A stretch of 64,000 nt of DNA from the NCBI RefSeq assembly GCF_018977255.1, contig NW_024704746.1, positions 27,094,001 through 27,158,000 of the forward strand. The letters run 5' to 3'. Under the pieces are notes generated by a model. It saw nothing but the letters and a program-made list of their open reading frames with translations. It did no database searches and was not told the origin of the DNA. The DNA comes from Callorhinchus milii (lineage: Eukaryota). Numbering within the stretch: position 1 is the stretch's first letter; the number at the start of each line of letters is the position of its first letter. Positions 3,238-50,200 of the stretch are shown here, piece by piece. Position numbers and translations under genes: made by a program.

Positions 3238-3277
<40 letters not shown>
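2928..3277 (+). mobile_element. Full-length tRNA-derived SINE (tRNA-Ala-like head, Deu-like 3' half, L2-type tail)
   Basis: A box TAGCTCAGTGG, anticodon-like loop TTTGCAA, B box GAGTTCAATTCC; body tgtttgtgggacattgctgtgcgcaattggctgcc; tail gtgaagcgctttggg...gcgctatatcaaatgcaagg(ATT)n. Confidence 0.88.
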
Positions 3278-7044: not shown

Positions 7045-8365
7045 TCAATTCAACTTTCTTCAGTTGAACGTCAACAAGACCGAGGCTCTCCTGATTGGCT
7101 CCCGTCAGCGCTTCCTCACCTCAGGCGCTGACAGCATCACCATCCCTGGGGCTCACTCCCCCTCCCTGAGCCGGTCCCGAACCTTGGGGTCTGGTTTGAC
7201 CCTCAACTATCCTTTCTCCCCCACATCTGTGCCATGACCCGCTCTGCCTTCCCCACCTCCGCAACATGGCCCGACTCCACCACTGTCTCACACCGCAGCC
7301 CCCGAGACCCTCACACACACATTCATAGCATCCAGGCTCCACTGTGCAAACTCGCTGCTTGTCGGCCCCCAACTCCTCCCTCCACAGACTGCAGATCATC
7401 CCGAACTAACTCTGCAGCCCGTGTCCTCTCCCCCACCGGGCACCGTGACCCCATCACCCCCATCCTCTCCCACACCGGGCTCCGTGACCCCATCACCCCA
7501 TCCTCCCCCACCGGGCACCGTCACCCATCACCCCCATTCTCTCCCACACCGGGCTCCGTGACCCCATCACCCCCATCCTCTCCCACACCGGGCTCTGTGA
7601 CCCTATCCCCCATCCTCTCCCCACCGGGCACCGTGACCCATCACCCCCATCCTCTCCCACACCGGGCTCTGTGACCCTATCACCCCCATCCTCTCCCACC
7701 CGGCTCCGTGACCCATCACCCCCATCCTCTCCCCCACCGGGCTCCGTGACCCCATCACCCCATCCTCTCCCACACCGGGCTCCGTGACCCCATCACCCCC
7801 ATCCTCTCCCCACCGGGCACCGTGACCCTATCACCCCCATCCTCTCCCACACCGGGCTCCGTGATCCTATCACCCCCATCCTCTCCCACACCGGGCTCTG
7901 TGACCCTATCCCCCCACCCTCGTGACTTCACTGGCTTCCCATCACACAGAGGATACAGATCAAGATCCTGATCCTCATCTTCAAAGCCCTCCATGGTCTT
8001 GCTCCCCCCCCAACACCTCTCCGACCTCCTAAATCCCTACCACCCTGTTCGCTCCCTCTGCTCTGTGGGCTCCGGCCAGCTTCACATCCCCCGCCTCGCT
8101 CGCCCCACTATCAGTGGCCAGGCCTTCCGCCACTCTGCCCTCGCCCTCTGGAACTTCATCCCTGACCCTCCGTCTCGCCCCCTCCCTCGCCACATATCAA
8201 GACCCACCTCAAGACTCTCCTCTTCGACCGTGCTTTCGATCTCCCTGCTTCCCCCCACCCGCCCTCCCCCGCTCGGGTCTGTAACCCTATACGTCCAGCG
8301 CCTTGGGACGTCCTCCCAACGTGAAAGGCGCGATACACATGTCATTTTGTTGTTGCTGTTGTTAG
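7045..8365 (+). mobile_element. Degenerate L2 LINE 3' portion with internal minisatellite
   Basis: NFLQLNVNKTEALLIG, NSAARVL, LHWLP-like cttcactggcttccc and FKALHGLAP motifs; same L2 tail and (TTG)n. Confidence 0.87.
7425..7920 (+). repeat. GC-rich ~40-bp minisatellite
   Basis: About 12 copies of ccccatcctctcccacaccgggctccgtgaccccatcac. Confidence 0.92.
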
Positions 8366-9689: not shown

Positions 9690-12461
9690 TTAACTCTCAT
9701 ATTCAATAGACTTTGCCAGTTCACTGGAATTCATTCTCTCTCCAAACCGCTCGTCGAACAGTTTATTCTGTCTTGTGCTGAAATGGTTCTTCCAGTCTCC
9801 AACAGTACCTAAAGAGAAGAGGCGCATGGATTAGACTGGGAAACAGTAATAATAATTGGATTTGATACAGCGCCTCATCACGTCCTTGAGACGTCTCAAA
9901 GCGCTTCACAAGACAACCCTGTAATGTGGATTGACTGGATATTTTCTGGACGAAAACACCTTTGTAACTTTTGAACACATGTGATTTGGGGATCTGCTCT
10001 GGGGAGGAAACTAAAAGAAGATGTTGCGGTGAGCCCTAAGGAGGGTATAAAGGGTTTCAATGAATTGAATCCAGGGAATCCGTGGAAACAGATTGACTAG
10101 CGTGCTGCCAGATACGCTGACTACAAGCAGATCAATTCAGCCTTCATCCCTTCAGGAAACTGGATGCAAGTCCTGCGAGGTGACAAACTTCTCTGTTGTG
10201 CCACTCAGTCGGCTCAATGTTACCCCAAATGCCCATCTAAACAGTTCTGATATTATTGCAAAGCTGTAGCCATGGCAACCCTCCATTATTATTGGCTAAA
10301 AATGAATTAAACCTCTAATTGTATTATCATAATAATTTTCGCATTTGACATAGCGCCTTATCAATCACTATTGAGTCTGATCACCCTATCAGTATCAAAT
10401 AAACTCAGAGGAGACGAACCTTTTCGGAATATCAGCCTCTTGTTGGATGTCAGAGCGCACACAGTGTTATTGGCATCGACCTTTTCCTTCTGCGCCTGTT
10501 CCTTCATCTCATTAAAGGACGATTTCCTGGTGATGTCGTCAATTTGCTCAGAAGTCAGGTTGACACCCAGGAAGGTGCTGATCTGCTCAACGCTCTCGGT
10601 CGGATCCTGGAGAGAGAATTCCAGAACAAAAGTTTAATTATAAAAAGGGAAATGAGAGAGTATACAGTGCCCTTCATGAAATAATAATCTCAACAAATGT
10701 GTGACTTTGTAACAAGAACATATGACAATTTGTGATTTATTCTACTTTAGACATTTCGCCAACAAAATACACAGTCAATCTTTTTCCTGTGAAGTGTTTT
10801 GAGACCTCTCAACGATGTGATAAGGTGCTATATCAAATCCAAGTAATATTATTATTATTATTATTATTATTTAATGTGTCATTTACATTGTGTTTAATTT
10901 CTGAATGTTTAATTCAGAAATTAAACACAAATTTTCAGCGAAACTGAAAAATAATTTTAGTGTTGCGGAATAATTATTTCAGTTCTTTCAGTTGTTGTCT
11001 GGCCGCGTGTATATAATAAGTGTGGTGCATTGTTACAGATCTCGTGCGAAACAAGTGCAGTATCTCACCTTCTTCATGGCTTCGTAGTACAGAATGAGAA
11101 CATTGTCATCATTTTTGCGCTCCTCCCAACTGTGAATGTGATCGCACCACGAGCCACAAACAACTGCAATAGAAAAGAACAAATGTTCAGCAATCAGTCA
11201 TCTGGAAATGAGATTGTATTTAATTTCTTGCCCTCCCTCTGTGCCTCCCCTTATCCATTGTCGTTAAATTCTGCCATTTTGATTTACGTGTCAAATTGAA
11301 CCGTATAAAGATTTTTCCTATTCTCACCGTCTCCGTTCAGGAACTTTTCCAAAAAGGTGGTCCATTTGTCAACGGTTGGCAGGTTGGGATTATCTTTGTA
11401 GTAGTGATACAAGGAAACAGCAGTGTCTTTAGGGTTTCTGATGATGTAGATCATCTATTGAGAAGAGAGAACACAACATGTTTAGCAAAGATCATACAAA
11501 GAGCACACAAGGTTTTATATTTAATTAATAATAATTAAATATAAAACATATATACAACAGATCCTTAGAAACAAACCGAGCATCCCAATTTACATTTTAT
11601 TAGCAAAGAACACAAGATACTGCATTATTCAAGACAATATATGAATATGTTACATATATTTTTTGCAGATGTTATGTGTAAATTATTTAAGTAAAAACAT
11701 AAGAATTTGCTAAACGAAAGAAGACCGAAGTCCACCCCGTTTGCCTTCCACCATCCTGGCAGCCACTTGCACATGTCATGTCCCAAACTATATACTGTAT
11801 CCCCGAGATATTATTTCTTAACAGAAACCTATCTCATTTGTTCTTGAAATAATGATCTACATTAAACATTTCAAATCGATGAAAAGCAATAGTTTTGATA
11901 CATTTGATTTGTTTATAAAGCAACTCTCTGAAGCATTGCAGAATACAGCGTCTCCTTTAATTGTACAATAAAATGCCAAGTGTCTGTACCTTGCATTTCT
12001 TGGTTTTGAGCTGCACTGGCAACATCTTGTAGTTCAGGTGTGTGGGGATCAGTCTCGGGGAAGGAAGATTTCTCAGGTCCTCGTATTTGGAAGGATCTCC
12101 AAACTCAATGGGAGAGGTCAGTGTCACTGTTCCACAGCCATTTGCACCTTGTTGAGTGCGGTACAGGTTTTTCAGGATCTCTGCCAGCCAGTGAGTCCCT
12201 GTGAGGGTTGAAGAGAGAAAGACAATGAGAGTGAGATATTGTCAAACTATTATCAATAGAAACACACCATCTTCCCTATCTCTGGAGATTTGATTTTATA
12301 TTTAATGTGTAAAACTTCTTACCTGACTTTGGGTAGGACACCAACAGCACATCATCCTCTCTGGCTTCAAAGGAGTCCAAGGTGTGTAAAAGCTCTTTTG
12401 ATGAGCGTGTAGAAAAGGGAATCCCGTTAAAGGTGTGGACGAGGGCTGACTGGGATGGCAT
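9690..12461 (-). CDS. Cytosolic sulfotransferase, SULT6B-like, copy A (291 aa, 6 coding exons)
   Basis: Exons 12461-12323, 12198-11990, 11454-11328, 11163-11069, 10606-10420, 9808-9690 (139/209/127/95/187/119 nt = 876 nt). All introns GT-AG and phase-consistent. Motifs: SYPKSGTHW (5'-PSB loop), PTHL (catalytic His), RNPKDTAVS (3'-PB), RKGTVGDWKNHF. LDSFEAREDD, EFGDPSKY and PSPRL resemble SULT6B proteins. Confidence 0.93.
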
Positions 12462-16723: not shown

Positions 16724-18881
16724 TTAACTTTCATATTCAATAGACTTTGCCAAATCACTCAAATTCATTCTCACTCCAAAATGCTCATCGAATAGCTTAT
16801 TCTGTCTTGTGCTGAAATGGTTCTTCCAATCTCCAACAGTACCTAAAAATAGAAGACAAATGATTAGACAATGAAGACCATGTGTGTAACACGTGAAAAT
16901 TCAATTAAAAAGTGGTGTTGAATGTTCTGTGGTCAAAGTAATAATAATAATAATCCTTGCATTTGATATAGCGCCTAATAGTGTTTTGGGGACATCTCAA
17001 ATTAATGACCACCCACTGGTATTACTATTGTTATATTAAATTATATTATGATGTTATATAATATATTGTTATACTGCACTGTTATTATTTCCATTATTGA
17101 GATGGAAATAACTCTATAACTATTTATTAGGGAGACATTTCCATCCGGTCTAGACGTTTTTGGCTGAGGAGCTTCACTATGGTTCGATGTCACAAACTAT
17201 ATTTACCTTTTCGGAATATCAGCCTCTTGTTGGATGTCAGAGCGCACACAGTGTTATTGGCATCGACCTTTTCCTTCTGCGCCTGTTCCTTCATCTCATT
17301 AAAGGACGATTTCCTGGTGATGTCGCCAATTTGCTCAGAAGTCAGGTTGACACCCAGGAAGGTGCTGATCTGCTCAACGCACTCGGTCGGATCCTGGAGA
17401 AATAATCACAAGGAAAAAAAGCTTATTATGAAAAAGGCGAAGGGTTTGTTCATGTAGAATTCTGTGTGTGTGTGAGTTGAGTGTGAGTGTGATTAAAAGT
17501 ATTGCGCTGTGAGATGCCGTCGTCTGAATCGCAATTCTCTTGAATTGTGGATGGATTCTTCCCTCAATAAATATCTACCGGTATTTGTAACTTCTTCCAC
17601 ATGTAATTGTGAAGTAACTTGTTCATTCCTACTCCGAAACATGATCATAACATTCTTATTATTATCAATTTGGATGTGAGATACTTAGACAAAGTGTAAA
17701 TGTGGTATAATTTCATATCTGGCAACACATTTTCTACAGTATCTCACCTTCTTCATGGCTTCGTAGTACAGAATGAGAACATTGTCATCATTTTTGTGCT
17801 CCTCCCAACTGTGAATGTGATCGCACCACGAGCCACAAACAACTGCAATAGAAAAATAGAATAAGTGTTAAGTAAACAGTTAATTGGAAGTGTGATTATA
17901 TTCGCGGTAGTTTCTCTTCATTGGCAAACTGAATGAGTTGGTCAGTTGATTGATATTAAAGTTAAGTACCAATATTTGTCTGTAATAATATTTCATTTAA
18001 GGGCAGTGTTAAAATCTTTTGTGGAATCTGCAACCTGAATGTTTTTGACATTGTAAATCTCACCGTCTCCGTTCAGGAACATTTCCAAAAAGGTGGTCCA
18101 TTTGTCAACGGTTGGCAGGTTGGGATTGTCTTTGTAGTAGTGATACAAGGAAACAGCGGTGTCTTTAGGGTTTCTGATGATATAGATCATCTGTGAGAAG
18201 AGAGAACACAACATGTTTAGCAAAGATCATACAAAGAGCACACAAGGTTTTATATTTAATTAATAATAACAATATTCATTACATTTGATACTTGGCTTTA
18301 TCATGCCGATGGGAATATGTTGTAAAGTGGATTGACTGTATATTTTGTGGGCAGAATAGGCACTGTTCTTAATGTAAGGATTATTGTGATATTTATCAAG
18401 TGTCTGTACCTTGCATTTCTTGGTTTTGAGCTGCACTGGCAACATCTTGTAGTTCAGGTGTGTGGGGATCAGTCTCGGGGAAGGAAGATTTCTCAGGTCC
18501 TCGTATTTGGAAGGATCTCCAAACTCAATGGGAGAGGTCAGTGTCACTGTTCCACAGCCATTTGCACCTTGTTGAGTGCGGTACAGGTTTTTCAGGATCT
18601 CTGCCAGCCAGTGAGTCCCTGTGAGGGTTGAAGAGAGAAAGACAATGAGAGTGAGATATTGTCAAACTATTATCAATAGAAACACAACATCTTCCCTATC
18701 TCTGGAGATTTGATTTTATATTTAATGTGTAAAACTTCTTACCTGACTTTGGGTAGGACACCAACAGCACATCATCCTCTCTGGCTTCAAAGGAGTCCAA
18801 GGTGTGTAAAAGCTCTTTTGATGAGCGTGTAGAAAAGGGAATCCCGTTAAAGGTGTGGACGAGGGCTGACTGGGATGGCAT
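16724..18881 (-). CDS. Cytosolic sulfotransferase, SULT6B-like, copy B (291 aa)
   Basis: Exons 18881-18743, 18618-18410, 18190-18064, 17842-17748, 17393-17207, 16842-16724. Same sizes and motifs as copy A; no stop or frameshift seen. Most divergent last exon (DEHFGVRMNLSDLAKSIEYES*). Confidence 0.93.
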
Positions 18882-19156: not shown

Positions 19157-19359
19157 ATGTAGGTTTAAGTGGTTTTGTAGATATAGATTTACTGATATTC
19201 TGAAAATTCACATGGGTCGAGATCAGTAGAGTTGTTATTTCCACATATTGTAGACCAATGGAAAGCATTGCAAAATACAAATAACTCTACTGATCTCGAT
19301 CCATGTGAGTTTTCAGAATCTCAATAAATCGATATCTACAAAAACAATTAAATCTACAT
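19157..19359. repeat. Imperfect ~80-bp inverted repeat (hairpin, MITE-like)
   Basis: 19157-19240 (atgtaggtttaagtggttttgtagatatagatttactgatattctgaaaattcacatgggtcgagatcagtagagtt) is the reverse complement, with mismatches, of 19279-19359; loop ~38 nt. Confidence 0.85.
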
Positions 19360-21354: not shown

Positions 21355-21610
21355 TTCAGGGCGAAACATTGGGCAAGTTTCCTTCCTCCACACTCCTCTG
21401 TTTACCCAGCAGTAAGTAGGAACCCGGTTGTTAATAATAATTTGGTCACTCAATCCACAGCTTTTTGTGAAAACACTGCTGTGTGAAATTAGGGACTGTG
21501 TTTCGCCCACAAAATATAGTCAATTCACTTTACAGTATACTCTGTGAAGCACTTTGAAACATCTCAACAAGGTGATAAGACACTACATCAAATGCAAGGA
21601 TTATTATATG
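21355..21610 (+). mobile_element. SINE lacking the tRNA head
   Basis: cctctgtttacccagcagtaagtaggaacccggttgtt central motif, body and tail. Confidence 0.82.
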
Positions 21611-21639
21611 ATGTTTATACTCTACATGAGTAGAGTATA

Positions 21640-21980
21640 AACCACCCCTCCCCTCTACCGCTCCCCTCTATTGCTTTCGTCCTCATGTAGACATCACATT
21701 TCCTCTTAAATGTGTCATTGCTTTCTAGTTCAACCACAGCTTCCATCCGTCAGTTCCACCATCTCACCACCCTCTGTGCAAGAAGTTCCTCTTAAACACC
21801 TGTGAGATCTGCTGCTAATTTATCTTTATGTCCCTTTATTTCAGACTCAGCCACACAGCCTGTTAACGCTCACGTAATTTAATTATTTCATGATCTTAAA
21901 CATCTCCATCAGGTCCCTTCTCAATCATCTCTTTTCCAGAGAGGAAAACTTCACCCTGTCCAGTCTTTCCGGGTAGCTAT
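21640..21980 (-). mobile_element. Degenerate CR1-like ORF2 3' fragment
   Basis: ttcctcttaaatg...gttccaccatctcaccaccctctgtg...tcaggtccctt...cttttccagagag...tccagtctttcc pattern of reversed CR1 ORF2 C-termini. Confidence 0.6.
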
Positions 21981-22645
21981 GTGATGTCTGACAATTGTTT
22001 CCATTGTAAAACATATCTTGTTCTTGTGACACACATTCTTGTGAAATATAATGCCTGATTATAGAATATGAGTGCTCGTCGGACATCAATATCAATGGCA
22101 AGCTATGTGGTTTTAGCTGGTTAGACTCTAGCAGTGCCACGCTCTGGGTGGAAGGGAGAGAGGAGGATTGATTTCCACGGCAGTCTTCGGGAATTATTGG
22201 AAATAATGTTTCATAACTCAATCAATATGACAAGTTACAAAACTTATAGTAGAATTATAAGTATACCGCACTTATATTAGAATTTTGAACATTACAGGAA
22301 AAAGTCAATGAGTATATTGGTTTCACTTTTTTATTGAAGTGCAGTGAGAAGAAACAAACCACAAAGCTGTTCAATAATAAAAATAAATATTCAGATAAAT
22401 TAACAACAATCAAAAATATTCATTGATCTAATCCTTGGGTTATGTGGGTAATAAGTTTTATATATAAAGAATACAATTCAACACATCATAAATATTACAC
22501 GCAGCACTGAGTACACTAAGCTCATTGCCTCATGAACCTTATGCTGCAGTTTAAGTAAGAAATTCCTGCAATAAATTATTACAAATACAAATATTGTTTG
22601 AATCCTAAGCACGAGATTTTCTACTTCAAAAAACATCCTTCAATG

Positions 22646-25181
22646 TTAACTCTCGTATATAATAGACTTTGCCAGTTCACTGGAATTCATTCTCTCTCCA
22701 AACCGCTCATCAAATAGCTTATTCTGTCTTGTGCTGAAATGGTTCTTCCAATCTCCAACAGTACCTAAAGGTTAGAAGGGCAAATAGATTAGTTTGGAAC
22801 ATGTCTAACAGTCGAATAAATAGTGCGGAACATGGCAGTCATTTATCAAATATATACATATATATGGTGTCCAACACATAACACAATGTTTAATAAGAAA
22901 ATTAAATATGTCAACCATCCCCCTACGTATATTCCGTTATGACTGGTTCTCAAAGGATCAGCAGCAGCAACGCTTAAAGTCAAAATAACTCGAGCAAGTT
23001 GTACTCTCCTCAACCTGAGAGGACCAGGAAATCTAACAGAGACTTCAGTCAACACAGAGACATTCTTAATTAGTAAAAGGGGAACTGAGGTTGAGGTACA
23101 GATCCGCCATAATTTATAGAATAGTGGAACAGGCTCTTGGGGCTGAATGGCCTACTCCGGCTCTATAAGAATCGTCCCATTTTACCCAATTAGCTCTGAA
23201 TTTACCTAAATCTGCTGTGACTGTAGCGAATTGTGATCATTAATACAATCTCACTATTTCAGCTCAATCCTGTCACCAAATAAACTCAGAGGAGACGAAC
23301 CTTTTCGGAATATCAGCCTCTTGTTGGATGTCAGAGCACACACAGTGTTATTGGCATCGACTTTTTCCTTCTGCGCCTGTTCCTTCATCTCATTAAAGGA
23401 CGATTTCCTGGTGATGTCGCCAATTTGCTCAGAAGTCAGGTTGACACCCAGGAAGGTGCTGATCTGCTCAACGCACTCGGTCGGATCCTGGAGAAACAAT
23501 CACAAGAAGAAAAGCTTGTTATAAAAAGGGAGATAAAACTATCATTAATTTAAATATGAATATTTTCCTCATGGCCCAGTAACAGATACTGTTCAATGAG
23601 GATGAGAATCTCTTTTGCCAGTTTAGTAACTTACAAGAAATGTGTGTATATGAGGAATAGGATTTTCCTGCTTTAGGACAACGGCACATTGTGAATGATG
23701 GGACCCAAAGTGCTGTGGAGTTGAGTGAAATCCTCCTGAATTGTTGGTCAATTCTTCCCCAATAAATATTTGCTGGTATTTGTAACCTGTTCCTCATATA
23801 GTGAATGAATTGGTGCCCTGTGGATTCTGATGACTAGATATATATGTAATTGCAGAGATATTACAAGGGTTCTTACTTGTTTAGACCCAATTTGGATGTA
23901 AGATGTGACATAGAATAAAGCAGAACCTTTGTGCACGACCTTACCTTTTTCATGTCCTCGTAATATAGAATGAGAACATTGTCATCATTTTTGTGCTCTT
24001 CCCAACTGACAATATGATCGCACCACGAGCCACAAACAACTGCAATAGAAAAGAATAATTGTTTAGCAATTTGTAGATCTAGAAATCTAGATTTTATTTC
24101 CAGGAAATTTTTATTTATTCACAAATTGAGAGAATGGGTCAGAATTTTAACATTAAATTTAGTGACAATAACTACTACTACTAATAACGATAGTAACAAT
24201 AACTACTACTACTAATAATAATAATATTAGCAATCACTAACTGTGACATAATCTCACCTTCTCCTCTCAGGAACATTTCTAAAAAAGTGGTCCATTTGTC
24301 AACGGTTGGCAGGTTGGGATTATCTTTGTAGTAGTGATACAAGGAAACAGCAGTGTCTTTAGGGTTTCTGATGATGTAGATCATCTGTGAGAAGAGAGAA
24401 CACAACATGTTCAGCAAAGATCACACAAACAGCACTAAATATCAGTGCTCAAAGAGCACAATAATAATCAAAATATTGTTCACTGAATGCACATAAATTA
24501 TGAAACAAAACAGATATGTGTAAGTGTAAGGTTAAGTAGGTAACACATTTTAGGCTTAATTATGAATTATTAACAATTTTATGGAAATGTAAGATTATGA
24601 GTATTTTGATAAATTTTAAGTCTTTATGAAACATTAACATTGTAATATGTTGCATGAAAACCATTTCTCTAATGTAAGGATTATTGTGATATTTATCAAG
24701 TGTCTGTACCTTGCATTTCTTGGTTTTGAGCTGCACTGGCAACATCTTGTAGTTCAGGTGTGTGGGGATCAGTCTCGGGGAAGGAAGATTTCTCAGGTCC
24801 TCGTATTTGGAAGGATCTCCAAACTCAATGGGAGAGGTCAGTGTCACTGTTCCACAGCCATTTGCACCTTGTTGAGTGCGGTACAGGTTTTTCAGGATCT
24901 CTGCCAGCCAGTGAGTCCCTGTGAGGGTTGAAGAGAGAAAGACAATGAGAGTGAGATATTGTCAAACTATTATCAATAGAAACACACCATCTTCCCTATC
25001 TCTGGAGATTTGATTTTATATTTAATGTGTAAAACTTCTTACCTGACTTTGGGTAGGACACCAACAGCACATCATCCTCTCTGGCTTCAAAGGAGTCCAA
25101 GGTGTGTAAAAGCTCTTTTGATGAGCGTGTAGAAAAGGGAATCCCGTTAAAGGTGTGGACGAGGGCTGACTGGGATGGCAT
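22646..25181 (-). CDS. Cytosolic sulfotransferase, SULT6B-like, copy C (291 aa)
   Basis: Exons 25181-25043, 24918-24710, 24384-24258, 24039-23945, 23487-23301, 22764-22646. Intact splice sites and motifs; minus-strand AATAAA near 22330-22335. Confidence 0.93.
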
Positions 25182-26646
25182 GTTGCAGTCGGATTCTCTC
25201 TCAGATCTGAGGCTGTGGAAACGAGAAGAGACTCTGAATGATGAGAGGCTGGAGATCCTCCTGTATATATACATCCTCTCTGTCCTGTCGTAGTTACACC
25301 ATTGACGCAACCTTCAGTACCGGAAAATGATTTCACAATTGACCAACGCAAATAAGATTGTCGTCACGGAATACTACAACAACATTCTCATTATTGTTTT
25401 TCCTCAGCCCAAGATTTACTTTTCTGATATTTTAACAAACTTCCCAATTTAACAATCCAATCAGGAACTCGTGTCAATTAGCATTAATAATAAACATTGC
25501 ATTTGATATAGAGTCGCATCACATCTTTGAGACATTTCACGGAATATACTGAGAGTATATATTTTTTGTGGGCGAAACACTTTACGTTTTGCACTGCACA
25601 GGAATCAAACCCAGGTCCTCTCGCTTGCAAGGCGAGTCCTCAAGCAATTGCTACAGGATCCCACATCTTAATCATTCCCAATATGTGACAAAGTGTTGTT
25701 TGAGGGGTTCTTCCACAGAATTGTTTACTGATACTCTGAGAATTCACAAAGCGTGAGAACAGTAGCTGTGTCTGTTTTGCAATACTTTCCGTTGCTTTTT
25801 ATTATGTAGAAATAGGGACTTGTTATTGGAAATAGATCAGCCTTTGGAATAGGGAAGTAATTTGTTGTTGTGATATAATATTCTTCACTATTTCTGTTAT
25901 CACCATCAATTCACTGCCCTTAGTCACTACACACTTCTGTGTGCTGATGATCAGCTCTGATCAGATCTTCCTCTACACAAGCCTCATTGGGCCCAAAGAG
26001 TTATTGCTGGACATGGAGGAGACCAATAACAGAAGCATTTCCAGGACAAATATTATTTAAGGGAATTGAATTGAAGATGAAGGGAATTGGAAATAGCGAA
26101 GAATATTATAGTACCACAACACATTGCACTTGTATAGCATCTTTCACATATAAAGGACGTCCCAAGGCGCTGGACAGTCAGGGATTTGGACCCAGTGCTG
26201 CGAGTTGGCATTGGGGGAGGGTGGAGGGCAAGGAGGGTGGGGGTAGGAGGGTGACCGATGGTGCGGTCGAACAGGAGGGTCTTGAGACGGGCCTTGAAGG
26301 AGGCAACTGTTGACCAACACGGTCTTTAGGACCTTTCTATAGCAGCCTGTCTAACATAGTGACAGCTGTAATTAATGCTGGTCTTAAACCCATTTAAAAC
26401 AATAGAATTCATAAGGTAAAGTGATGCTAATCTACAGATAACCTGTTAATAGGACCCAATGAAGGATTTTATCCTAATAATATACATGTTTTAAGGCTGG
26501 TAAAATGTCCTACAGAATTTTGTTAAGCCGTGGATTGCTGTATTAAACTCCTAATTCAGTCAATAACTTTACAAATGTTTGGGAGGAATTTCTCCTCCAA
26601 ATAGCCCCAAAGCCAAACAGACAGACTTTACTTCTCTGTCCCAACT

Positions 26647-26959
26647 TTTCACGGAATATACTGAGAGTATATATTTTATGTGGGCGAAACACTTTACGTT
26701 TTGCACTGCACAAATATCAAACCCAGGTCCTCTCGCTTGCAAGGCGAGTCCTCAAGCAATTGCTACAGGATCCCACATCTTAATCATTCCCAATATGTGA
26801 CAAAATGTTGTTTGAGGGGTTCTTCCACAGAATTGTTTACTGATACTCTGAGAATTCACAAAGCGTGAGAACAGTAGCTGTGTCTGTTTTGCAATACTTT
26901 CCGTTGCTCTTTATTATGTAGAAATAGTGACTTGTTATTAGAAATAGATCAGCCTTTGG
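26647..26959 (+). repeat. Direct duplicate of 25535-25847 forming the palindrome spacer
   Basis: Starts tttcacggaatatactgagagtatat and ends gaaatagatcagcctttgg in both places. ORF track shows near-identical 62-aa ORFs at 25568, 26680 and (reverse) 27843. Confidence 0.92.
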
Positions 26960-28254
26960 GACAGAGAAGTAAAGTCTGTCTGTCTGGCTTTGGGGCTATT
27001 TGGAGGAGAAGTTCCTCCCAAACATTTGTAAAGTTATTGACTGAATTAGGAGTTTAATACAGCAATCCACGGCTTAACAAAATTCTGTAGGACATTTTAC
27101 CAGCCTTAAAACATGTATATTATTAGGATAAAATCCTTCATTGGGTCCTATTAACAGTTTAGCTGTAGATTAGCATCACTTTACCTTATGAATTCTATTG
27201 TTTTAAATGGGTTTAAGACCAGCATTAATTACAGCTGTCACTATGTTAGACAGGCTGCTATAGAAAGGTCCTAAAGACTGTGTTGGTCAACAGTTGCCTC
27301 CTTCAAGGCCCGTCTCAAGACCCTCCTGTTCGACCGCACATTCGGTCACCCTCCTACCCCCACCCTCCTTGCCCTCCACCCACCCCGATCCCAACTCCCA
27401 GCACTGGGTCCAAATCCCTGACTGTCCAGCGCCTTGGGACGTCCTTTATATGTGAAAGATGCTATACAAGTGCAATGTGTTGTGGTACTATAATATTCTT
27501 CGCTATTTCCAATCCCCTTCACCTTCAATTCAATTCCCTTAAATAATATTTGTCCTGGAAATGCTTCTGTTATTGGTCTCCTCCATGTCCAGCAATAACT
27601 CTTTGGGCCCAATGAGGCTTGTGTAGAGGAAGATCTGATCAGAGCTGATCATCAGCACCCAGAACTGTGTAGTGACTAAGGGAAGTGAATTGATGGTGAT
27701 AACAGAAATAGTGAAGAATATTATATCACAACAACACATTACTTCCCTATTCCAAAGGCTGATCTATTTCCAATAACAAGTCACTATTTCTACATAATAA
27801 AGAGCAACGGAAAGTATTGCAAAACAGACACAGCTACTGTTCTCACGCTTTGTGAATTCTCAGAGTATCAGTAAACAATTCTGTGGAAGAACCCCTCAAA
27901 CAACACTTTGTCACATATTGGGAATGATTAAGATGTGGGATCCTGTAGCAATTGCTTGAGGACTCGCCTTGCAAGCGAGAGGACCTGGGTTTGATTCCTG
28001 TGCAGTGCAAAACGTAAAGTGTTTCGCCCACAAAAAATATATACTCTCAGTATATTCCGTGAAATGTCTCAAAGATGTGATGCGACTCTATATCAAATGC
28101 AATGTTTATTATTAATGACAATTGACACGAGTTCCTGATTGGATTGTTAAATTGGGAAGTTTGTTAAAATATCAGAAAAGTAAATCTTGGGCTAAGGAAA
28201 AACAATAATGAGAATGTTGTTGTAGTATTCCGTGACGACAATCTTATTTGCGTT

Positions 28255-28340
28255 GGTCAATTGTGAAATCATTTTGCGTTACTGAAGGTTGCGTCAATGG
28301 TGTAACTACGACAGGATAGAGAGGATGTATATATACAGGA
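28255..28340 (+). promoter_or_regulatory. SULT proximal promoter with TATA box (copy D; equivalents at ~12540-12630, ~18960-19050, ~25260-25350 on minus)
   Basis: TATATATA at 28328-28335, ~85 nt before the ATG; upstream TTGCGTCAAT (TGACGCAA on the other strand) and TTGGTCAA. The block is conserved in all four copies. Confidence 0.65.
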
Positions 28341-28417
28341 GGATCTCCAGCCTCTCATCATTCAGACTCTCTTCTCGTTTCCACAGCCTCAGATCTGAGA
28401 GAGAATCCGACTGCAAC

Positions 28418-31136
28418 ATGCCATCCCAGTCAGCCCTCGTCCACACCTTTAACGGGATTCCCTTTTCTACACGCTCATCAAAAGAGCTTTTACACACCTT
28501 GGACTCCTTTGAAGCCAGAGAGGATGATGTGCTGTTGGTGTCCTACCCAAAGTCAGGTAAGAAGTTTTACACATTAAATATAAAATCAAATCTCCAGAGA
28601 TAGGGAAGATGGTGTGTTTCTATTGATAATAGTTTGACAATATCTCACTCTCATCGTCTTTCTCTCTTCAACCCTCACAGGGACTCACTGGTTGGCAGAG
28701 ATCCTGAAAAACCTGTACCGCACTCAACAAGGTGCAAATGGCTGTGGAACAGTGACACTGACCTCTCCCATTGAGTTTGGAGATCCTTCCAAATACGAGG
28801 ACCTGAGAAATCTTCCTTCCCCGAGACTGATCCCCACACACCTGAACTACAAGATGTTGCCAGTGCAGCTCAAAACCAAGAAATGCAAGGTACAGACACT
28901 TGGCATTTTATTATAATTCAAAAAGAAAGTGTTTACTCAACGATTCTCTCTTGTTTTATAAACAGACTACGGTAAATGAGTCCAAAACCTTACATTGTCT
29001 GTTTAAGTTAATGAGAAATAATAATAATAATAATAATCCTGGCATTCAATATACTGCCTGATCATCTCATTGAGGCGTTTGAATACATTGCGCAGGAGTT
29101 TACTGTGAAATATTGTGACTGTGTATTTTTGTAGGTAACCTCTAATGTTATCGTAATAAAACCAGTACTCTGCAATAAAGTACTGTATTATAGGCATATA
29201 GTAATAACAGGTATTAGTTAGAACAAAATATTATTTCTGGTTTATTGATATGTAAATACTTGAAATCATTAAGCACCCCGTGTTTCCTTATGAAGCTAAT
29301 TTGATTTCAAAATTAAATGAATGAATGTTTCTAAACATGTTGTGTTCTCTCTTCTCACAGATGATCTACATCATCAGAAACCCTAAAGACACTGCTGTTT
29401 CCTTGTATCACTACTACAAAGATAATCCCAACCTGCCAACCGTTGACAAATGGACCACCTTTTTGGAAATGTTCCTTAGAGGAGAAGGTGAGATTATGTC
29501 ACAGTTAGTGATTGCTAATATTATTATTAGTAGTAGTTATTGTTACTATCGTTATTATTAGTAGTAGTTATTGTCACTAAATTTAATGTTAAAATTCTGA
29601 CCCATTCTCTCAATTTGTGAATAAATAAAAAATTCCTGGAAATAAAATCTAGATTTCTAGATCTACAAATTGCTCAACAATTATTCTTTTCTATTGCAGT
29701 TGTTTGTGGCTCGTGGTGCGATCACATTGTCAGTTGGGAGGAGCACAAAAATGATGACAATGTTCTCATTCTGTACTACGAAACCATGAAGAAGGTGAGA
29801 TACTGCACCAAGTTACCCACCAGATCTGTAACAAACTGCTCTGTGTTTCTCTTGGAGATAAGAATAACGGATGGAACCACATTACACGCTGCAACAACTT
29901 GCATTTATTTAGTGCCCTCATGCAGGGTGGCATTCCAGAGCACTTAATGCTTAGATTGAATTGAAATATGATCAGAGAGCTACAAATGACATTTATATCC
30001 ATTGAGGTTCCTCATTTCAATGGTTAAATTTATTGTTCATAAACAGTTGTTTCCCTCTGAAAGATACTGAAAACTTATAATAATCCTCACATTTGATATA
30101 GCGCTTTGAATGTCTCGACGTCTCAAAGTGCTTCACAGAATATACTGCAACATGAATTGACTGTATATTTGTGGGTGAAAGTATTATTATGTATGAATAA
30201 TAAGTTGATTCAGCAGCTTATCACATCATTGAACTGTCTCAAATTACTTCATGAGATCTACTGGAAAGTGTAGTGACTGTATTGTGTAGAACATTATTGC
30301 TTTCACACATACTAATGAATTTTTCTTCTCTGAATATTTTATCAGGATCCGACCGAGTGCGTTGAGCAGATCAGCACCTTCCTGGGTGTCAACCTGACTT
30401 CTGAGCAAATTGACGACATCACCAGGAAATCGTCCTTTAATGAGATGAAGGAACAGGCGCAGAAGGAAAAGGTCGATGCCAATAACACTGTGTGCGCTCT
30501 GACATCCAACAAGAGGCTGATATTCCGAAAAGGTTCGTCTCTGAATTGACGTCAATAGGTGTCGTTAGCTTTTGATTTACAATAATACTGACATCACTAT
30601 ATGTTGTGGCGGCAGCAAAGGGCTCAGAGAGGTCCGTTAGGTAACATGCGGACAGCACGAATACTGTTAGTAATCAGTGTGTGTTCCAACCCTGAACAGC
30701 CTTCAGTTGCTATTTGTCCTTTTCACCACCTGTGGCCCTACTTTACATGTTAATTTAGATTGGGATTCAATTGCAAATTAAAGTCAGAGGAAGGAATTCT
30801 CCGACTCAAAGCACTTCACAGAATATACTGTAAAGTGTAGTGACTGTGCATTTTGAGGGCAATTTCCACTGTGAGTAATAACAGCACTTAAAGGGAAACC
30901 ACTGAACATAGTTTAGCATCACCCAGAGCAGTTACAATCACATTATGTGTCTCTAAACTCTTGTTTGTGTTAATTACATATATTTCCCAGTCTAATCCAT
31001 GCGCCTCTTCTCTTTAGGTACTGTTGGAGACTGGAAGAACCATTTCAGCACAAGACAGAATAAACTGTTCGACGAGCGATTTGGAGAGAGAATGAATTCC
31101 AGTGAACTGGCAAAGTCTATTGAATATGAGAGTTAA
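28418..31136 (+). CDS. Cytosolic sulfotransferase, SULT6B-like, copy D (inverted; 291 aa)
   Basis: Exons 28418-28556, 28681-28889, 29361-29487, 29700-29794, 30346-30532, 31018-31136. Translates MPSQSALVHTFNGIPF...SYPKSGTHW...RNPKDTAVS...RKGTVGDWKNHF...KSIEYES*. Confidence 0.94.
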
Positions 31137-31285
31137 CATCGAGGGACATCAGTGAAGTCGGAAGAAGAAAATCTCTTGACACTAAATCAACAGAGTTAGG
31201 GAGAAAATATTGTAATGGCTATATTTATAATCATGTATAGAAATCTTTCTCTTATATTATTATATTGATAAATGTGTAAATAGCT

Positions 31286-31291
31286 TTTATT
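31286..31291 (-). terminator. Candidate polyadenylation signal of RECQL
   Basis: First minus-strand AATAAA (TTTATT on plus) found downstream of the stop at 31797. Confidence 0.5.
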
Positions 31292-31397
31292 TATAACAAG
31301 ATATTTTACAACTTTTTTTGGTCAGCAGGTAATTATTTGCTTATACAGTATTTGGAAATGACCTGTGCATTTTTTGTTTATCATATCAACTCAAACT

Positions 31398-31403
31398 AAT
31401 AAA
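31398..31403 (+). terminator. Candidate polyadenylation signal of SULT copy D
   Basis: First AATAAA after the stop codon at 31136. Confidence 0.55.
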
Positions 31404-31796
31404 AAAGTAAAAAAATGTATTGACTTGCTGATAACTTTCAACTTCATGGCACACATGTGTAAATCACGGGCTTTGAATGCCCACCCACATAATACTACTA
31501 CTAATAATAATAGCATTTGATATCTGTGCATAATTGGCTGCCGTGTTTCACCCACAAAATATACAGTCAATTAACTGTACAGTATATGCTGTGAAGCGCT
31601 TTGAGACGTCTCGATGACGTGATAAGGCACTATATCAAATGCAAGGATTATTATTATTTAAACAATGTCCAGATCTGACCCTATGGCAAAGACGCATATA
31701 AAGAAGCATTGGCTTGATACCACAGCATTTCCATCCCTCTAATGGTAGTAACAGAATAGGATTGTTCCTCTGGATGAATCAGTGCAATGTAATAGG

Positions 31797-40744
<8,948 letters not shown>

Positions 40745-41859: not shown

Positions 41860-44250
41860 TGGTCAGTCTGAGACGTGCGGAAAGCCGTCACCGTACTTAA
41901 GAGCATCCGAACCAAACCGAGAATTCCAGATATACTTGGGAGGGCTTTGGCTGCGGCGTCACCAGGAGCTGAGGGGGAGGATTCCCTGCCCCCAGTGACC
42001 GGTCGGCCCTTCCAGGTCCTGCCGATGAGCCGGGCCGGGCCCTGGGACACTGCGGCCCCTCCCGGCTCAAAAACCATGGACTAGAGACCGCCACAAGGGC
42101 GGGCGGGGGGGCCCGACCAGTCCAGCTCCCAAGGAGACCCCGCTTCCGTGTGTACTACACGCCCGCCCCGATAAAGGCGCATCCCGCCAATCGTGGCCGG
42201 GCGCGGGTTTACGCCAACCCGGAACGCGGGCGGGAACCACTATTTTCAGCGCCTCGGGACGCACGTGCTCCTGGGCCTGAAAGGCAACTGCACAAAGGTA
42301 ACACGTGGTGGCGGCGGCGGCGGTGGTGGTGGTGGGGATCTAACCCCACGCTCCAGCCCGTCTCCCCCACTTTATGGGGGGGGGGGGGGAAGAAGACAAA
42401 CAGACAGACATTTTCCACTGGTTGGACCAACTGGCAAAGCAGATGGAGGGTGACTGACTGACTGACCTGGAGGAGGAGATCGTGGTGCCACCACCACCAA
42501 CAGCAGCTTCTTTCTTTCTGTCTCTCTCTCTCTCACTCTGTTTCTCTTTCACTTTCAGCTGGTCAAGGACTTCCTGCTTCTCTCAACCAATCAGCGCTCG
42601 GGACGCTCGCCATTGGCTAGCATTCGACCAATAGCAGCAGCTCGTCCCCCCTTCCCCCCCACACACTCAACGTATAAACTGGACGCTCGCCATTGGTTAA
42701 CATCCGACCAATGGCAGCAACTCGACTCCACCCCCCCCCACCCCCGCCCCGCCCACCAGCCAATCACGTGTCGCAGGCTGACATTCTCTCCCCGCCCCCC
42801 CCCCCCGACTGACGTCACTGGCCTCGCGCCTGTAATAACGGTCGTTATTCAGGCGGCCATAACGGTTCCCAATGGCCGCCCTGAATGAAAAAAACCATTC
42901 AACGTCAAATCAACCCTCCCCCACCCCTCCCCCCCACCCCCACACCTCCACCCCCGCCCCGCGAGGCCGCTTCTCACACATGATATGATGACACCGACAT
43001 CACGTGGGTTTGCATCGGGCTCCGCTTTCGCCGCTCACCTGCGTTCGCGGCGGTCGAAGCGACACCGCGAGGACCTCACTCCGCAATCCGCCAGGGGCGG
43101 CGACAGGGGGCGGGTCTGTCCCGCCTGTCAGTCAGCGGTTGCCAGGGGCGGGGCGAGATCGCGGTCCGTCAGTCACTCAGTCAGTCAGTGGTTGCCAGGG
43201 GCGGGGCGTGACTCGCCTGTCAGTCAACGGTTGCCAGGGGGCGGGGTCGCTGTCAATCACGCAGTAAGCTGCAGTGTGATTGGGTCGGGGGTGGGGCCGT
43301 CAGGTGACCGCGCCCTCGCGTGGGAGGGGGGAGGGGGCGGGGCGGGGGCCCGCATCCGGCGCGTGTTTCCGGAAGACGTGGCGGCTGATGTGGAGGCGGT
43401 GGGCGGGAGCTGCTGCTGCTGCTGCGCTGCGGGGCCGCCAACATGATCTCCTTAACGGATTCGCAAAGTAAGCGACGTCTCTCGGGGGGGGGGGGAGTGA
43501 CCGGGGAGGGAGGGAGGGAGGGGTCAGGGCAAGTCCCGGACCACCAGCCGCTGGGCTGAGCCGCGGCCTCTGACCGGTTTCCAAGGCGACCGGCCCGGCC
43601 CGGCCTGGAGTCGAGGCCTACACGGCTGTGACCGGCATCAACGGCCCAGGCAGCGGGTCCGGTCAGCGGTTGAGGTGGTCAGGGAGGGAGGGAGGGAGGG
43701 AGGGGCTGAGGCTGTGTGAGCCACTGACTGACCGGTCCGGCCACTAACTCTTGTGTGGCCGCTCTCAGAGAGAGAGAGGGAGAGATTATCCCCAACAACA
43801 ACAACAACTTGTATTTGTGTGGCGCCCTCCACCCCGGGCGGCGTCTCGGAGCGCTCAGCAATGGCGGAGCCCGAGGTGGCGGTGGGGGGGAAGATGACCG
43901 ACCCCAGTCGGGTAGATCCCATCCCAATAATAATAATAATTTGGTCGCTTCGATCCACCACTGTTTGTGGGGCGCTGCCGTGCCCAATTGGCTGCCCCGT
44001 CTCAACCCACAAAGCACACGGGCGCTACACTTTACAGTGTATCCCGTCAGGCGCTTTGAGACGTCTCGAAGACGGGATACGGCCCAGGATCAGATGCGAG
44101 GATTATTATCATTATTAACGATCCATCTCCGGGATTTTCCGCGTGTGGTCGGGATGCATAGTTTGGAGCACAGCTTGGTTCGGAGACCCTTCAGCGGGGT
44201 GATGGGTTCTCCCCCCCCACGGCACGTGCTTCGGAGACTCCAAACCAAAC
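41860..44250. promoter_or_regulatory. CpG island / bidirectional promoter of RECQL and GOLT1B
   Basis: Abrupt GC- and CpG-rich stretch between divergent genes. Multiple CCAAT boxes (42587-42765), GC boxes (GGGGCGGGG), palindromic CRE TGACGTCA at 42810-42817, CACGTG E-boxes, ETS-like CCGGAAG near 43369. Confidence 0.88.
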
Positions 44251-47200: not shown

Positions 47201-50200
47201 TCATGGAATGAGTGATCAAATAATTCAGATTTTAGTTATTTTATATATTTTTAAAGATGATGAGCTCTGGGTCGGCCAGTACATTTCAGAGGTGAATATG
47301 AGTGGTGAAGTCCGCGTGTAATCTCCTGTTTTTGCATTTCCTTTACAGAAATTGGAATGGGACTAACAGGCTTTGGCGTGTTTTTCCTGTTCTTTGGCAT
47401 GGTCCTGTTTTTTGACAAAGCACTCCTTGCAATAGGAAATGTAAGTTTGTCTTTGTAAACATCTTGTGGGATTATCTCGTGTGAACTCATTGTGATGACC
47501 ATACGGTTTGATATACAGAAGCACTCAAATGCATTTATCATGTCCTTGTTTAAGAAAACGGAAGAGATCAACATTACCTTTAAGGCTTAGGCTTTTACAC
47601 TCGTGTCTTATTTTGTTATTTATAAAACATCTTTAGACTTTTGAAACACTGATTCTCTTGAGGGGTCACTGTGTAGCGTAATTACTGGATTTTAGAAGGG
47701 AACAATTCAAAATGATTTTGATCTGAGCTTTAATGTATAACTTGTGGCAAGATTCAAAGGATTGATTGTGTAATAGTACAAAACAGTGTCAAAACTGATT
47801 CACATAGTGCAGCTTCAACTAAGCGCCCTCGCAACGATATAAAATTAACCTGCGTTTCATTCTAGTCATTGATCACTTCAACAAATTTTCTCAGTCATTC
47901 GGTTTGATTTTATTCCTATTGCCTTGAAAAATTAGGGCAGTTGGTGCTTAGTTTCAGTATTATTTCACGCTTTATATATTCACATATCAGCTGTGGCTGC
48001 CAATCCAAAAATGTGCAGGTCAAGTGTCTGTGTGTGAGTCAGGGAGATTTTTTGCTCTCGCCCTCAAATTCCTTTGCCCCTGAAGTTGCTGATTCATGCA
48101 AAGTTTCTATTCCACAGGCACCAGTCTAGTGATTCCTTCTGCAAAACAGCTATTGTTTATGTGTAAGCCTATACAACTGGATAGCAATCCGTAGTATTTA
48201 TTTTCTCCTCCTTCTCCTCGCCGCCCCCTCCCACCGCCCCCAATTCATGAACAGCAAGAGTTAAGAGACGTTTTGCATACTTTGTGTGCACTGGAGATTG
48301 AGCTGATTAAAATAGGCCTCATTAGATGATTGCCTTAAGAGTTCCCAGGAATGGTGGTTGCCTGTAGATATCTTTATGGAATATTCCCTTGACCTAATTA
48401 TATACATCACTTAAAAAAAACTGGAATTTCCACACGTTCCAAACTCCCGAAACTGTTGTTGCTATTTTTGTCCTGTTCATTTTGTTGTTGGAAACTATTG
48501 TACATCTTACTTTATGAAATTAGATTTGAAATTTTAAAAAAAAAGTCAGCTAATTCAATAGTTTAAGTCCGTGTGCGAATCATGTTACCATAAAGGAAAG
48601 TTCCCAAATAAGCGCTGTTTAGTTACTTAAAGCTTTCTTGTAGGATTGGAATTCCCAACATTAATGACTGTTTTGGGTAAACCCACTTTGAAATGTGTTG
48701 AGATAATCCAATATGTTGATGTCCGGATCCAGGTGCTGAAGGAATGTGTTCTGTTTATTAACACATTTGTCTACAAAATACACAGTCACTGCACTTTACA
48801 GTAAATTCTGTGAAGTTCTTTGAGAGATCCTCCTGATGTGAAAGGCATTATATCAAATGTTGACTGAAATAGCACACTGCAACCTTGTTTATTTAAAAAT
48901 ATGGTATTTAAGTGCAAAATAATTTTAAAATAACATTTCAGATGGTTACATTAGGTAGATGATTACCTCAGGGTTCCCAAGATTATTATTTGCATTTTTA
49001 AGTTGAATTTAAGGTGTGTTTATTATCCACCATGCCCTTGCTTTTCATTTGTTTCAGACAGACTAATTATAACTAGCGTGTTTTCTCTCTCTCTCTGCAG
49101 ATTTTATTTGTGACAGGCTTGTCCTTTGTCATTGGATTAGAAAGGACGATCAGATTCTTCTTCCAGAAGCACAAAATGAAAGCCACAGGATTCTTTTTGG
49201 GTGGTATATTTGTGGTGCTGCTTGGTTGGCCTGTGGTGGGGATGGTTCTTGAAATCTATGGATTCTTCCTTTTATTCAGGTAGAAACTCTATAAAAGATT
49301 ATCGATTGTTTCAATATTCCTTTCTCTTTTTCCTCGCACTCCATGAAAAGTAAGATGTAAACTTTACCTTCAATGTGAGGCAATGCAAAATACAAACATT
49401 TCGCCCACAAAATACAGTCAATTTATTTTACAGTGTATTCTGTGACGCGCTTTGAGACGTCTCGAAGACGTAATAAGGCGCTATATCAAATGCAAGAATT
49501 ATTATTATTTTCATTCTTATGATAGAACATTTCAAGTTTAAAGTTTACTTTGATTACACCGGATTATGGAGGAACAATTCAGTGGGTGGAATTAATAAAT
49601 TAGCAGATTGTCAGGGCTAACTTTTGTAATATTTTGGGGATATTCAAAAAGCTAAACCTCAAACTTCACATCTTTCCAAAACAATTGGTGATTCACTTGT
49701 GAGACATTGCTGTGTGGAATTGGCTTCAGCATCCCCCCCAATAAATGAATAGTCACTACACTTTACAGTAAAACCCTGGGAAATGCTTTGAGATGTTTTG
49801 ATGACATGTTTAGTATCAAATGCAAGGATTATTATCATTTATTATTATTTCAAACAGATTTTTGTAAAAGCTTCACTTTTTTTCTTGCTTCTTGACAGGG
49901 GGTTCTTCCCAGTTGTTATTGGCTTTATTAGACGAGTGCCTATATTAGGCTCCATTCTGAATTTACCTGGATTAAGCTCAGTAAGTATACAAATATTCTT
50001 ATATGTATAAAAATCCTACCTGCGTCTGCAAAGCCTCTTTGTAATTTGTACTTCAAGTTTGTGCCTGCAAGTGAGGAACAAGGTGTAATTTGAATTATTT
50101 AGTGCACATTACAATTACAGCTTAATTGGAATTGACTAAAGTAGCATACGGCATTGTTTAGCGAAGATAAAAGGCTGCTAAATTTTAAAGGGATTTTTTT

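What the first reader, a model, noticed from the sequence alone, without database searches (positions are those of the whole stretch)
24697..28902. 4.2-kb palindrome carrying two divergent SULT promoters and first two exons
Seen: ~1.95-kb arms are reverse complements with only scattered substitutions (e.g. cagtaccggaaaat vs cagtaacgcaaaat; GTC vs CTC upstream of the ATG). Even the SINE and L2 fragments are mirrored. Homology breaks 13 bp into intron 2 and resumes across exon 3-intron 3 (~24040-24411 vs ~29335-29699). Established: long palindromes with short spacers can form cruciforms, are unstable and undergo arm-to-arm conversion. Inference: C and D share a fully symmetric regulatory region and may be co-expressed; the spacer may flip.
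Basis: partly seen in the sequence, partly recalled or inferred. Interest (0 to 1): 0.72.

Follow-up and report, generated by a model that had tools for sequence, protein, structure and literature searches.

The report
Mirrored enzyme genes at inversion ends
Two sulfotransferase genes sit back to back on mirror-image DNA in a cartilaginous fish, and a matching mirrored set lies about 215,000 letters away at the far end of a gene block whose order is reversed relative to birds and mammals, so the palindrome is likely a by-product of that inversion and of copying among eight gene copies rather than a special regulatory device.

Summary
The palindrome is real: 1.95-kb arms, 29 differences in 1948 columns; both spacer junctions recur letter for letter in contigs of 2 of 4 runs laid. 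The 311-bp 'spacer' is a third copy of an arm segment. A second cluster of four SULT6B-like genes, with its own head-to-head palindrome, lies ~215 kb away. The two clusters bracket a RECQL-to-CMAS block that is reversed against the tetrapod order. D equals F (0/876 coding differences) and C matches G/H, in inverted orientation. The inner arm segments of C and D are the most divergent of four copies and group with copies in the other cluster (AU p=0.02 against local sisters), so C/D-specific arm-to-arm conversion is not supported. Exons 1-3 are homogenised across all eight genes. Best reading: an inversion with inverted duplications at both ends, later enlarged by a template switch that turned an older 0.78-kb spacer into arm sequence. 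Cruciform extrusion is unlikely with this spacer; co-expression is untested. New member of a known kind.

The parts
24697..26644 (.). Left arm = X (24697-25531: start of intron 2, exon 2, intron 1, exon 1 and promoter of gene C) + Y (25532-25860) + Z (25861-26644)
26956..28902 (.). Right arm = reverse complement of Z, Y, X; carries promoter and exons 1-2 of gene D
26645..26955 (+). Spacer: third copy of Y, with the three distal marker bases of the Y copies that face the end of Z in F and H
   Evidence: columns 314, 316 shared with F and H; 319 with H
26640..26650 (.). Junction J1: end of Z joined to start of Y with 2 extra letters (or 1-2 nt microhomology); found nowhere else in 356 kb
   Evidence: contigs in X1 and X3
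25861..26644 (.). Z: the older single spacer (still single between G and H); closest to the copy beside F (9 differences), farthest from the Z in D's arm (16)
26956..27736 (.). Inverted Z in D's arm; closest to the Z between G and H (7 differences)
25601..25665 (-). tRNA-like SINE head fragment in Y (79% to the full SINE inserted upstream of G); mirrored near 27934-27998, third copy in the spacer
   Evidence: very high summed depth
26113..26306 (.). High-copy LINE-like fragment in Z (L2 by recalled label); mirrored near 27294-27486
22646..25181 (-). Gene C, SULT6B1-like, 6 coding exons, 291 aa, intact
   Evidence: identical to P0021
28418..31136 (+). Gene D, SULT6B1-like, 6 coding exons, 291 aa, intact; coding sequence identical to gene F in the second cluster
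   Evidence: identical to P0016
23927..24417 (-). Exon 3-intron 3-exon 4 homology island with 29328-29812
9690..12461 (-). Gene A, SULT6B1-like, intact; shares exons 1-2, intron 1 and ~190 bp upstream with C and D at about 98%
16724..18881 (-). Gene B, SULT6B1-like, intact; same shared 5' tract
31137..31658 (+). 3' flank of D: near-identity to F ends near 31310, weak similarity ends at 31658; inferred left edge of the reversed block
32540..39479 (-). RecQ-type helicase exons (RECQL by neighbourhood), 3' end facing D; first gene of the reversed block
   Evidence: DEAD and Helicase_C hits; 3' exons read
49077..49280 (+). Got1 exon (GOLT1B by neighbourhood)

Best explanation
The palindrome is one end of a pair of mirrored sulfotransferase cassettes that bracket a ~215-kb gene block reversed relative to birds and mammals, and it likely arose as a by-product of that inversion plus a later template switch. 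Steps: (1) inferred: a tandem SULT6B-like array between ST8SIA1 and CMAS held an older head-to-head pair (arms X+Y, 1.16 kb; spacer Z, 0.78 kb); that layout is still seen at G/H (shown). (2) Inferred: an inversion of the RECQL-CMAS block left inverted duplicates of this pair at both ends; D=F and C~H, and each homology stops where RECQL-side or PYROXD1-side sequence begins (shown). (3) Inferred: a replication template switch at J1 joined the end of one Z to the start of a Y on the opposite strand and returned through arm homology, which doubled Z, made it arm sequence and left a Y as the new spacer; the second Z likely came from the other cluster, because the Z copies group across clusters (shown). 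(4) Shown as a pattern, inferred as a process: ectopic gene conversion among all eight paralogues keeps exons 1-3 nearly identical. The enzymes are predicted to be PAPS-dependent cytosolic sulfotransferases, and the likely net effect is gene dosage; C and D would be transcribed from near-identical but separate promoters.
For: Layout: C/D = X Y Z Y Z' Y' X'; G/H = X Y Z Y' X'; F = X Y Z' Y' x'. Order on the + strand: sialyltransferase(+), SULT A-B-C-D+, RecQ(-), Got1(+), glycogen synthase(-), LDH(-), ABC transporter(-), Kir channel(-), CMP-sialic acid synthetase(+), SULT E-F-G-H+, Pyr_redox(-), IAPP-family(-), two OATP genes(-). [quoted passage not shown] D vs F: 0 of 876 coding bases differ, 14 of 1473 from exon 4 to the 3' flank. 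C vs G/H 3' part: 19, 6 and 5 private sites in 1648 columns. Z: 6 of 8 informative columns group C+F against D+GH, 1 groups C+D, 1 groups C+GH; AU test p=0.021 for the local-sister tree. J1 has 2 extra letters, J2 a 5-nt shared word, as expected of template switching or end joining. Conversion: among codons for the same residue E and D differ at 4 of 157 in exons 1-3 but 24 of 71 in exons 5-6 (Fisher p=2e-10), although E's intron 1 and promoter do not align; F carries the 223-nt intron 2 of G/H, not D's 471-nt intron. The exon 1-2 contig has about 5-7 times the depth of single-copy contigs in X1-X3 (52 vs 7.6-8.2; 48.9 vs 5.1-9.2; 71.1 vs 10.1-15.2), roughly the 7 copies that share intron 1; the tool warns that depth is not copy number.
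Against: No cartilaginous-fish outgroup locus could be read, so polarity rests on tetrapod order and on the young duplicates. The block's orientation in this assembly depends on crossing 1.2-2.4 kb repeats of 98-99% identity and was not checked with long reads. Some sites favour local copying: 1 Z column and 2 neighbouring promoter columns unite C+D, 1 Y column unites F+H. The 6 supporting Z columns include an adjacent pair and a pair 4 bp apart, so there may be about 4 independent events, and the AU test assumes independent sites. Gene G and junction J2 need at least one further event, so the order of events is not unique. Gene names in the block come from Pfam domains plus neighbourhood, not from orthology trees; the CMAS-ST8SIA1 adjacency in tetrapods is recalled.
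Confidence: 0.6

Rival explanations
1. Local fold-back: the polymerase copied through Y', folded back to the end of Z with Y as the loop, copied Z backwards and rejoined through the old arm; the cross-cluster grouping of Z came later by conversion. The inversion is a separate, earlier event at the same cassette.
For: The geometry X Y Z [Y] Z' Y' X' is exactly a fold-back with a 311-nt loop; the spacer has the marker bases of the old right-arm Y; 2 promoter columns and 1 Z column unite C+D; conversion between the clusters is evident elsewhere.
Against: C and D carry the most divergent Z pair (16 of 782) and 6 of 8 informative columns group them with different partners; tree rejected at AU p=0.021; needs a reciprocal exchange or two conversions.
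Confidence: 0.22
2. The palindrome and both clusters are real, but the assembler reversed the 215-kb block by mis-joining through the near-identical D/F or promoter repeats; the true order is tetrapod-like with a SULT pair inserted between RECQL and PYROXD1.
For: Inverted repeats at both ends reach 98-99% with perfect runs of 452 and 478 bp; contigs from short reads cannot span them.
Against: The repeats are at most about 4.6 kb, the copies differ at about 1% of sites and by indels, the 356 kb have no gap runs (3 single N), and J1, which joins Z lineages of the two ends, recurs in 2 of 4 runs.
Confidence: 0.12
3. One reading: a selected, self-maintaining regulatory palindrome in which arm-to-arm conversion keeps two promoters identical for co-expression.
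For: Both genes are intact and share promoter, exon 1, intron 1 and exon 2 at 99% while introns 2, 4 and 5 do not align; a record closest to C (P0019, 2 differences) has an accession type that I recall as cDNA-based.
Against: The same 5' homogenisation covers A and B, which lie in direct orientation, and E-H 215 kb away; D has 7 private sites and only 2 of 38 variable columns are C+D-specific; the mirrored region includes transposon debris and is not more conserved than other young copies.
Confidence: 0.08

Closest known systems
Inversions with inverted duplications at both breakpoints (staggered-break model; Ranz et al. 2007, PMC1885836, abstract and passages read)
   Same: Reversed gene block; non-repetitive, protein-coding sequence duplicated in inverted orientation at the two ends; duplicates end at the block's edges.
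   Different: Here the duplicated unit is itself a head-to-head gene pair, all copies stay intact, and two further junctions and an extra gene (G) were added; described in Drosophila, where most duplicates decay.
DUP-TRP/INV-DUP, inverted-repeat-mediated template switching (PMC11293582, abstract and Introduction read)
   Same: A pair of inverted repeats; one junction hidden in repeat homology, the other with microhomology or a few extra letters; inverted gain of the enclosed segment.
   Different: Kilobase scale, germline evolutionary product in at least two animals; gain is Z 1 to 2 and Y 2 to 3 rather than a duplication-triplication-duplication ladder; the gained segment is not the sister of the local template.
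Gene-bearing palindromes kept alike by arm-to-arm conversion (primate X/Y palindromes; recalled, no paper read)
   Same: Two intact genes on inverted arms.
   Different: Arms 1.95 kb at 98.5%, no more alike than distant paralogues; conversion runs among eight copies in both orientations.
Vertebrate SULT6B1-like cytosolic sulfotransferases (P0002, P0016-P0021 named so by their sources for Callorhinchus milii; relatives in shark, sturgeon, bowfin)
   Same: 291 aa, PF00685, the usual PAPS-binding motifs; six distinct protein records match A, B, C, D/F, E and G/H exactly.
   Different: Eight intact copies in two clusters; the genes are annotated, but I found no paper on the arrangement (searches; listings only).

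Membership tests
Cytosolic SULT6B1-like sulfotransferase | Sulfotransfer_1 domain and closest named relatives | tested here: met
   PF00685 precomputed on all 15 of 15 hits, most named 6B1-like; A-H equal named records
Cytosolic SULT6B1-like sulfotransferase | PAPS-binding and catalytic motifs (motif identities recalled) | tested here: met
   four motifs at residues 43, 98, 122, 251 in 8 of 8 genes
Cytosolic SULT6B1-like sulfotransferase | Sulfonation activity and substrate | not testable with these tools
   needs assay
Inversion with inverted duplications at both breakpoints | Gene order reversed against outgroups | tested here: met
   against PMC6971405 and the list in PMC6691340; tetrapods only
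Inversion with inverted duplications at both breakpoints | Non-repetitive sequence duplicated in inverted orientation at both ends | tested here: met
   D/F and C/H
Inversion with inverted duplications at both breakpoints | Orientation confirmed by spanning molecules | not testable with these tools
   only short-read contigs were laid
Inversion with inverted duplications at both breakpoints | Single event with two junctions | tested here: not met
   J1, J2 and gene G need further steps; so a complex descendant of this kind, not a pure case
DUP-TRP/INV-DUP | Pre-existing inverted repeat pair | tested here: met
   X+Y arms with single Z at G/H
DUP-TRP/INV-DUP | One homologous and one microhomology/end-joining junction | tested here: inconclusive
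   J1 fits the second type; a homologous junction is invisible
DUP-TRP/INV-DUP | Inverted segment copied from the local template | tested here: not met
   Z tree; works like it, not filed as a member
Palindrome kept by arm-to-arm conversion | Arms more alike than other paralogues | tested here: not met
   2 of 38 columns C+D-specific; Z pair most divergent
Cruciform-extruding palindrome | Very short spacer, perfect centre | tested here: not met
   spacer 311 bp; spacer dependence in PMC10164571

The most novel reading that the evidence does not exclude
The 215-kb block that holds the K-ATP channel pair, LDHB, GYS2, RECQL and CMAS still flips in living animals through the SULT palindromes at its ends, and each flip or collapse (for example loss of one Z between the two direct Y copies) swaps promoters and 5' halves against the divergent 3' halves, so the locus works as a recombinational shuffler of sulfotransferase dose and specificity. 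Hints: F is a chimera (G/H-type intron 2, D-type 3' half); the J1 contig is listed in X1 and X3 but not X2; X1 and X3 carry a three-base variant tract in their main Z contig that none of the four assembled copies has.
Probability: 0.12. Interest if true: 0.7.

Novelty: new member of a known kind. Interest (0 to 1): 0.38.

Why it matters
It turns a lone palindrome into a dated, readable record of how a young (about 1-1.5% divergence) inversion, gene duplication and ectopic conversion acted together in a cartilaginous-fish genome, with both ends, the older layout and the junctions preserved. It predicts a testable inversion and copy-number polymorphism around ABCC9/KCNJ8, LDHB and GYS2, and warns that short-read mapping or expression calls for these SULT genes cannot be assigned to one copy. 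The mechanisms themselves are known.

Tried and rejected
First lay of four runs on 21500-32000 was swamped by SINE matches; its joint table was uninformative. X2 and X5 list no J1 contig; contigs show presence only, so this is no evidence of absence. J2 and the block's orientation were not tested against reads (both lays used). One search translated exon 2 in the wrong phase and was ignored. Gene order was mapped from 148 and 150 ORFs chosen by a crude codon score out of 7112; most gave no hit, and SPX/KISS2 were not found, which says nothing about them. No unique homology was seen between the D-RECQL and H-PYROXD1 intervals, only dispersed repeats, so a duplication of that breakpoint's own sequence is not shown. 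Rejected: unique spacer; haplotype false duplication of cluster 1 as cluster 2 (different neighbours, gene E only there); MITE or LTR reading of Y-Z-Y (Z and the main part of Y occur only at the SULT clusters); purifying selection alone for the 5' identity (synonymous sites). Paper searches for this locus in a cartilaginous fish gave nothing on the arrangement; PMC7044129 (passages) and PMC4287802 (passages; gene table not strictly in order) added little; PMC4015844 (passages) confirms GOLT1B-GYS2-LDHB-KCNJ8-ABCC9-CMAS as common neighbours in sauropsids, coelacanth and gar. No supplements were read; synteny figures or tables there could bear on the gene-order claim.
Full report
1. Observation. 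Self-comparison of the window shows an inverted repeat at 24697-26644 and 26956-28902: 1948 columns, 98.5%, 3379 bits, against at most 36 bits in 5 of 5 shuffles. Each arm holds the promoter, exon 1, intron 1, exon 2 and 13 nt of intron 2 of an intact 291-aa gene, C (minus) and D (plus). Sources name identical proteins sulfotransferase 6B1-like of Callorhinchus milii. A SINE head and a LINE-like fragment are mirrored.

2. The spacer is not unique. It is a third copy of arm segment Y (25532-25860), so the layout is X Y Z Y Z' Y' X' (a prime marks the reverse complement). The joint between Z and the spacer (J1, 26644/26647, two extra letters) is found nowhere else in 356 kb. Contigs without mismatch cover J1 and the other spacer joint in 2 of 4 runs laid, X1 and X3, which are different samples of one study; X2 and the 15-Mb run X5 list none. 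The J1 contig has 30 letters on each side of the two junction letters, one short of the tool's bridging rule, which is the size a junction contig takes at word length 31. A fold-back artefact of the assembly is therefore unlikely.

3. A second cluster. The arms recur about 215 kb away on the same contig; exon 1-2 DNA matches eight genes, all on C5. I read 356 kb. The second cluster (G000:C5:27323.7-27346.8 kb; L003-L005) holds E(-), F(-), G(-), H(+), all intact. G and H form a palindrome with 4.6-kb arms and the simpler centre X Y Z Y' X', with a SINE inserted in G's promoter; F is preceded by X Y Z' Y' and 200 bp of X', then a second new joint J2 (L004:7574-7585, 5-nt shared word). D and F have identical coding sequences (0 of 876) and 14 differences in 1473 downstream columns; C, G and H share their 3' halves (19, 6, 5 private sites in 1648). 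D and F, and C and H, are inverted relative to each other.

4. The clusters bracket a reversed block. Domain hits give: sialyltransferase(+), cluster 1, RecQ(-), Got1(+), glycogen synthase(-), LDH(-), Kir(-), ABC transporter(-), CMP-sialic acid synthetase(+), cluster 2, Pyr_redox(-), IAPP family(-), two OATPs(-). Gene names follow from domains and neighbourhood. [quoted passage not shown] Here CMAS, not RECQL, faces PYROXD1, so RECQL-CMAS is reversed, with a SULT cassette at each edge. That CMAS neighbours ST8SIA1, with a SULT6B pseudogene between them in human, is recalled and was not confirmed by a call. Inverted gene duplicates at both ends of an inversion are the signature described for 17 of 29 Drosophila inversions (PMC1885836, abstract and passages).

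5. The arms are not sisters. In the 1164-column X+Y unit of C, D, F, G, H only 2 of 38 variable columns are exclusive to C+D; D has 7 private sites. In Z (782 columns, four copies) C and D differ most (16), C-F by 9 and D-G/H by 7; 6 of 8 informative columns group C+F against D+GH, and the local-sister tree is rejected at AU p=0.021. The caveat is that clustered sites reduce this to about four independent events, and three or four sites elsewhere point to local copying. The second Z therefore most likely came from the other end of the block, either because J1 is itself an inversion junction or because it was a templated insertion; a local fold-back with later exchange remains possible. The two-junction logic (one in repeat homology, one by microhomology or end joining) is that of DUP-TRP/INV-DUP (PMC11293582, abstract and Introduction), but the case fails the local-template feature and is not filed there.

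6. Conversion is array-wide. Residues 1-143 are identical in 8 of 8 proteins. E matches D at 157 of the first 158 residues but at 71 of the last 101, the same count as D against the shark relative P0009 (71 of 101). Synonymous differences are 4 of 157 codons in exons 1-3 and 24 of 71 in exons 5-6 (p=2e-10), while E's promoter and intron 1 do not align. A and B, in direct orientation, share the same 5' tract, and F carries G/H's intron 2. Palindromic geometry is thus not needed for the 5' identity.

7. How it works. Shown: geometry, junctions, copy relationships, gene order, intact frames. Inferred: tandem array, older head-to-head pair, inversion with duplicated ends, template switch at J1, repeated conversion. 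Functionally the likely outcome is higher dose of a nearly invariant enzyme plus one divergent member. Cruciform extrusion is unlikely: a 100-bp spacer already lowers recombination 300-fold against 12 bp in yeast, though long-spaced repeats still pair in single-stranded DNA (PMC10164571, passages). The direct Y copies (96.4%) offer a route to collapse back to the simple layout with Z reversed (inference). Expression was not tested; two protein records close to C and to G/H (2 differences each) have accession types that I recall as cDNA-based.

8. Novelty and verdict. The genes are annotated; five searches of the held library (listings only) showed no paper on the arrangement, and the scan had no note on this locus. 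Every ingredient is a known process, so this is a new member of a known kind, interest 0.38. The boldest open reading, a block that still flips and reshuffles SULT halves, has probability about 0.12 and can be settled with long reads.

Noticed in passing
G000:C5:27230045-27231266 (L018) vs 27235855-27237084: A second, 97%-identical direct copy of the Kir-channel coding exon lies 6 kb downstream of the intact single-exon 410-aa frame; it is broken by two frame changes. The intact frame has no intron; KCNJ8-like by recalled N-terminus.
   Followed up: partly
window 26517-26529: X1 and X3 carry three linked base changes in their main Z contig (depth about 3-5 times single copy) that none of the four assembled Z copies has, and X2 lacks them: possibly a tract spread among paralogues in some haplotypes; contig simplification may exaggerate it.
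   Followed up: no
L005:2106-2430: Young full-length tRNA-derived SINE (about 325 bp, target duplication of about 11 bp, TAT tail) inserted about 210 bp upstream of G's start codon; 93-98% copies at window 2929-3260 and 44597-44920. It may uncouple G from the shared upstream unit.
   Followed up: partly
window 42001-44000: GC 65% island between the divergent RecQ and Got1 genes, a likely shared promoter.
   Followed up: no
window 19157-19359 and 62982-63187: Two ~205-bp self-complementary elements (78% and 83%), MITE-like.
   Followed up: no
window 7424-7921: Tandem repeat array of about 500 bp.
   Followed up: no
L003:3731-8110 (gene E): Gene E has its own promoter and introns and a C-terminal third as divergent as a shark relative, yet exons 1-3 overwritten by the A-H type: a natural chimera that may differ in substrate.
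   Followed up: yes
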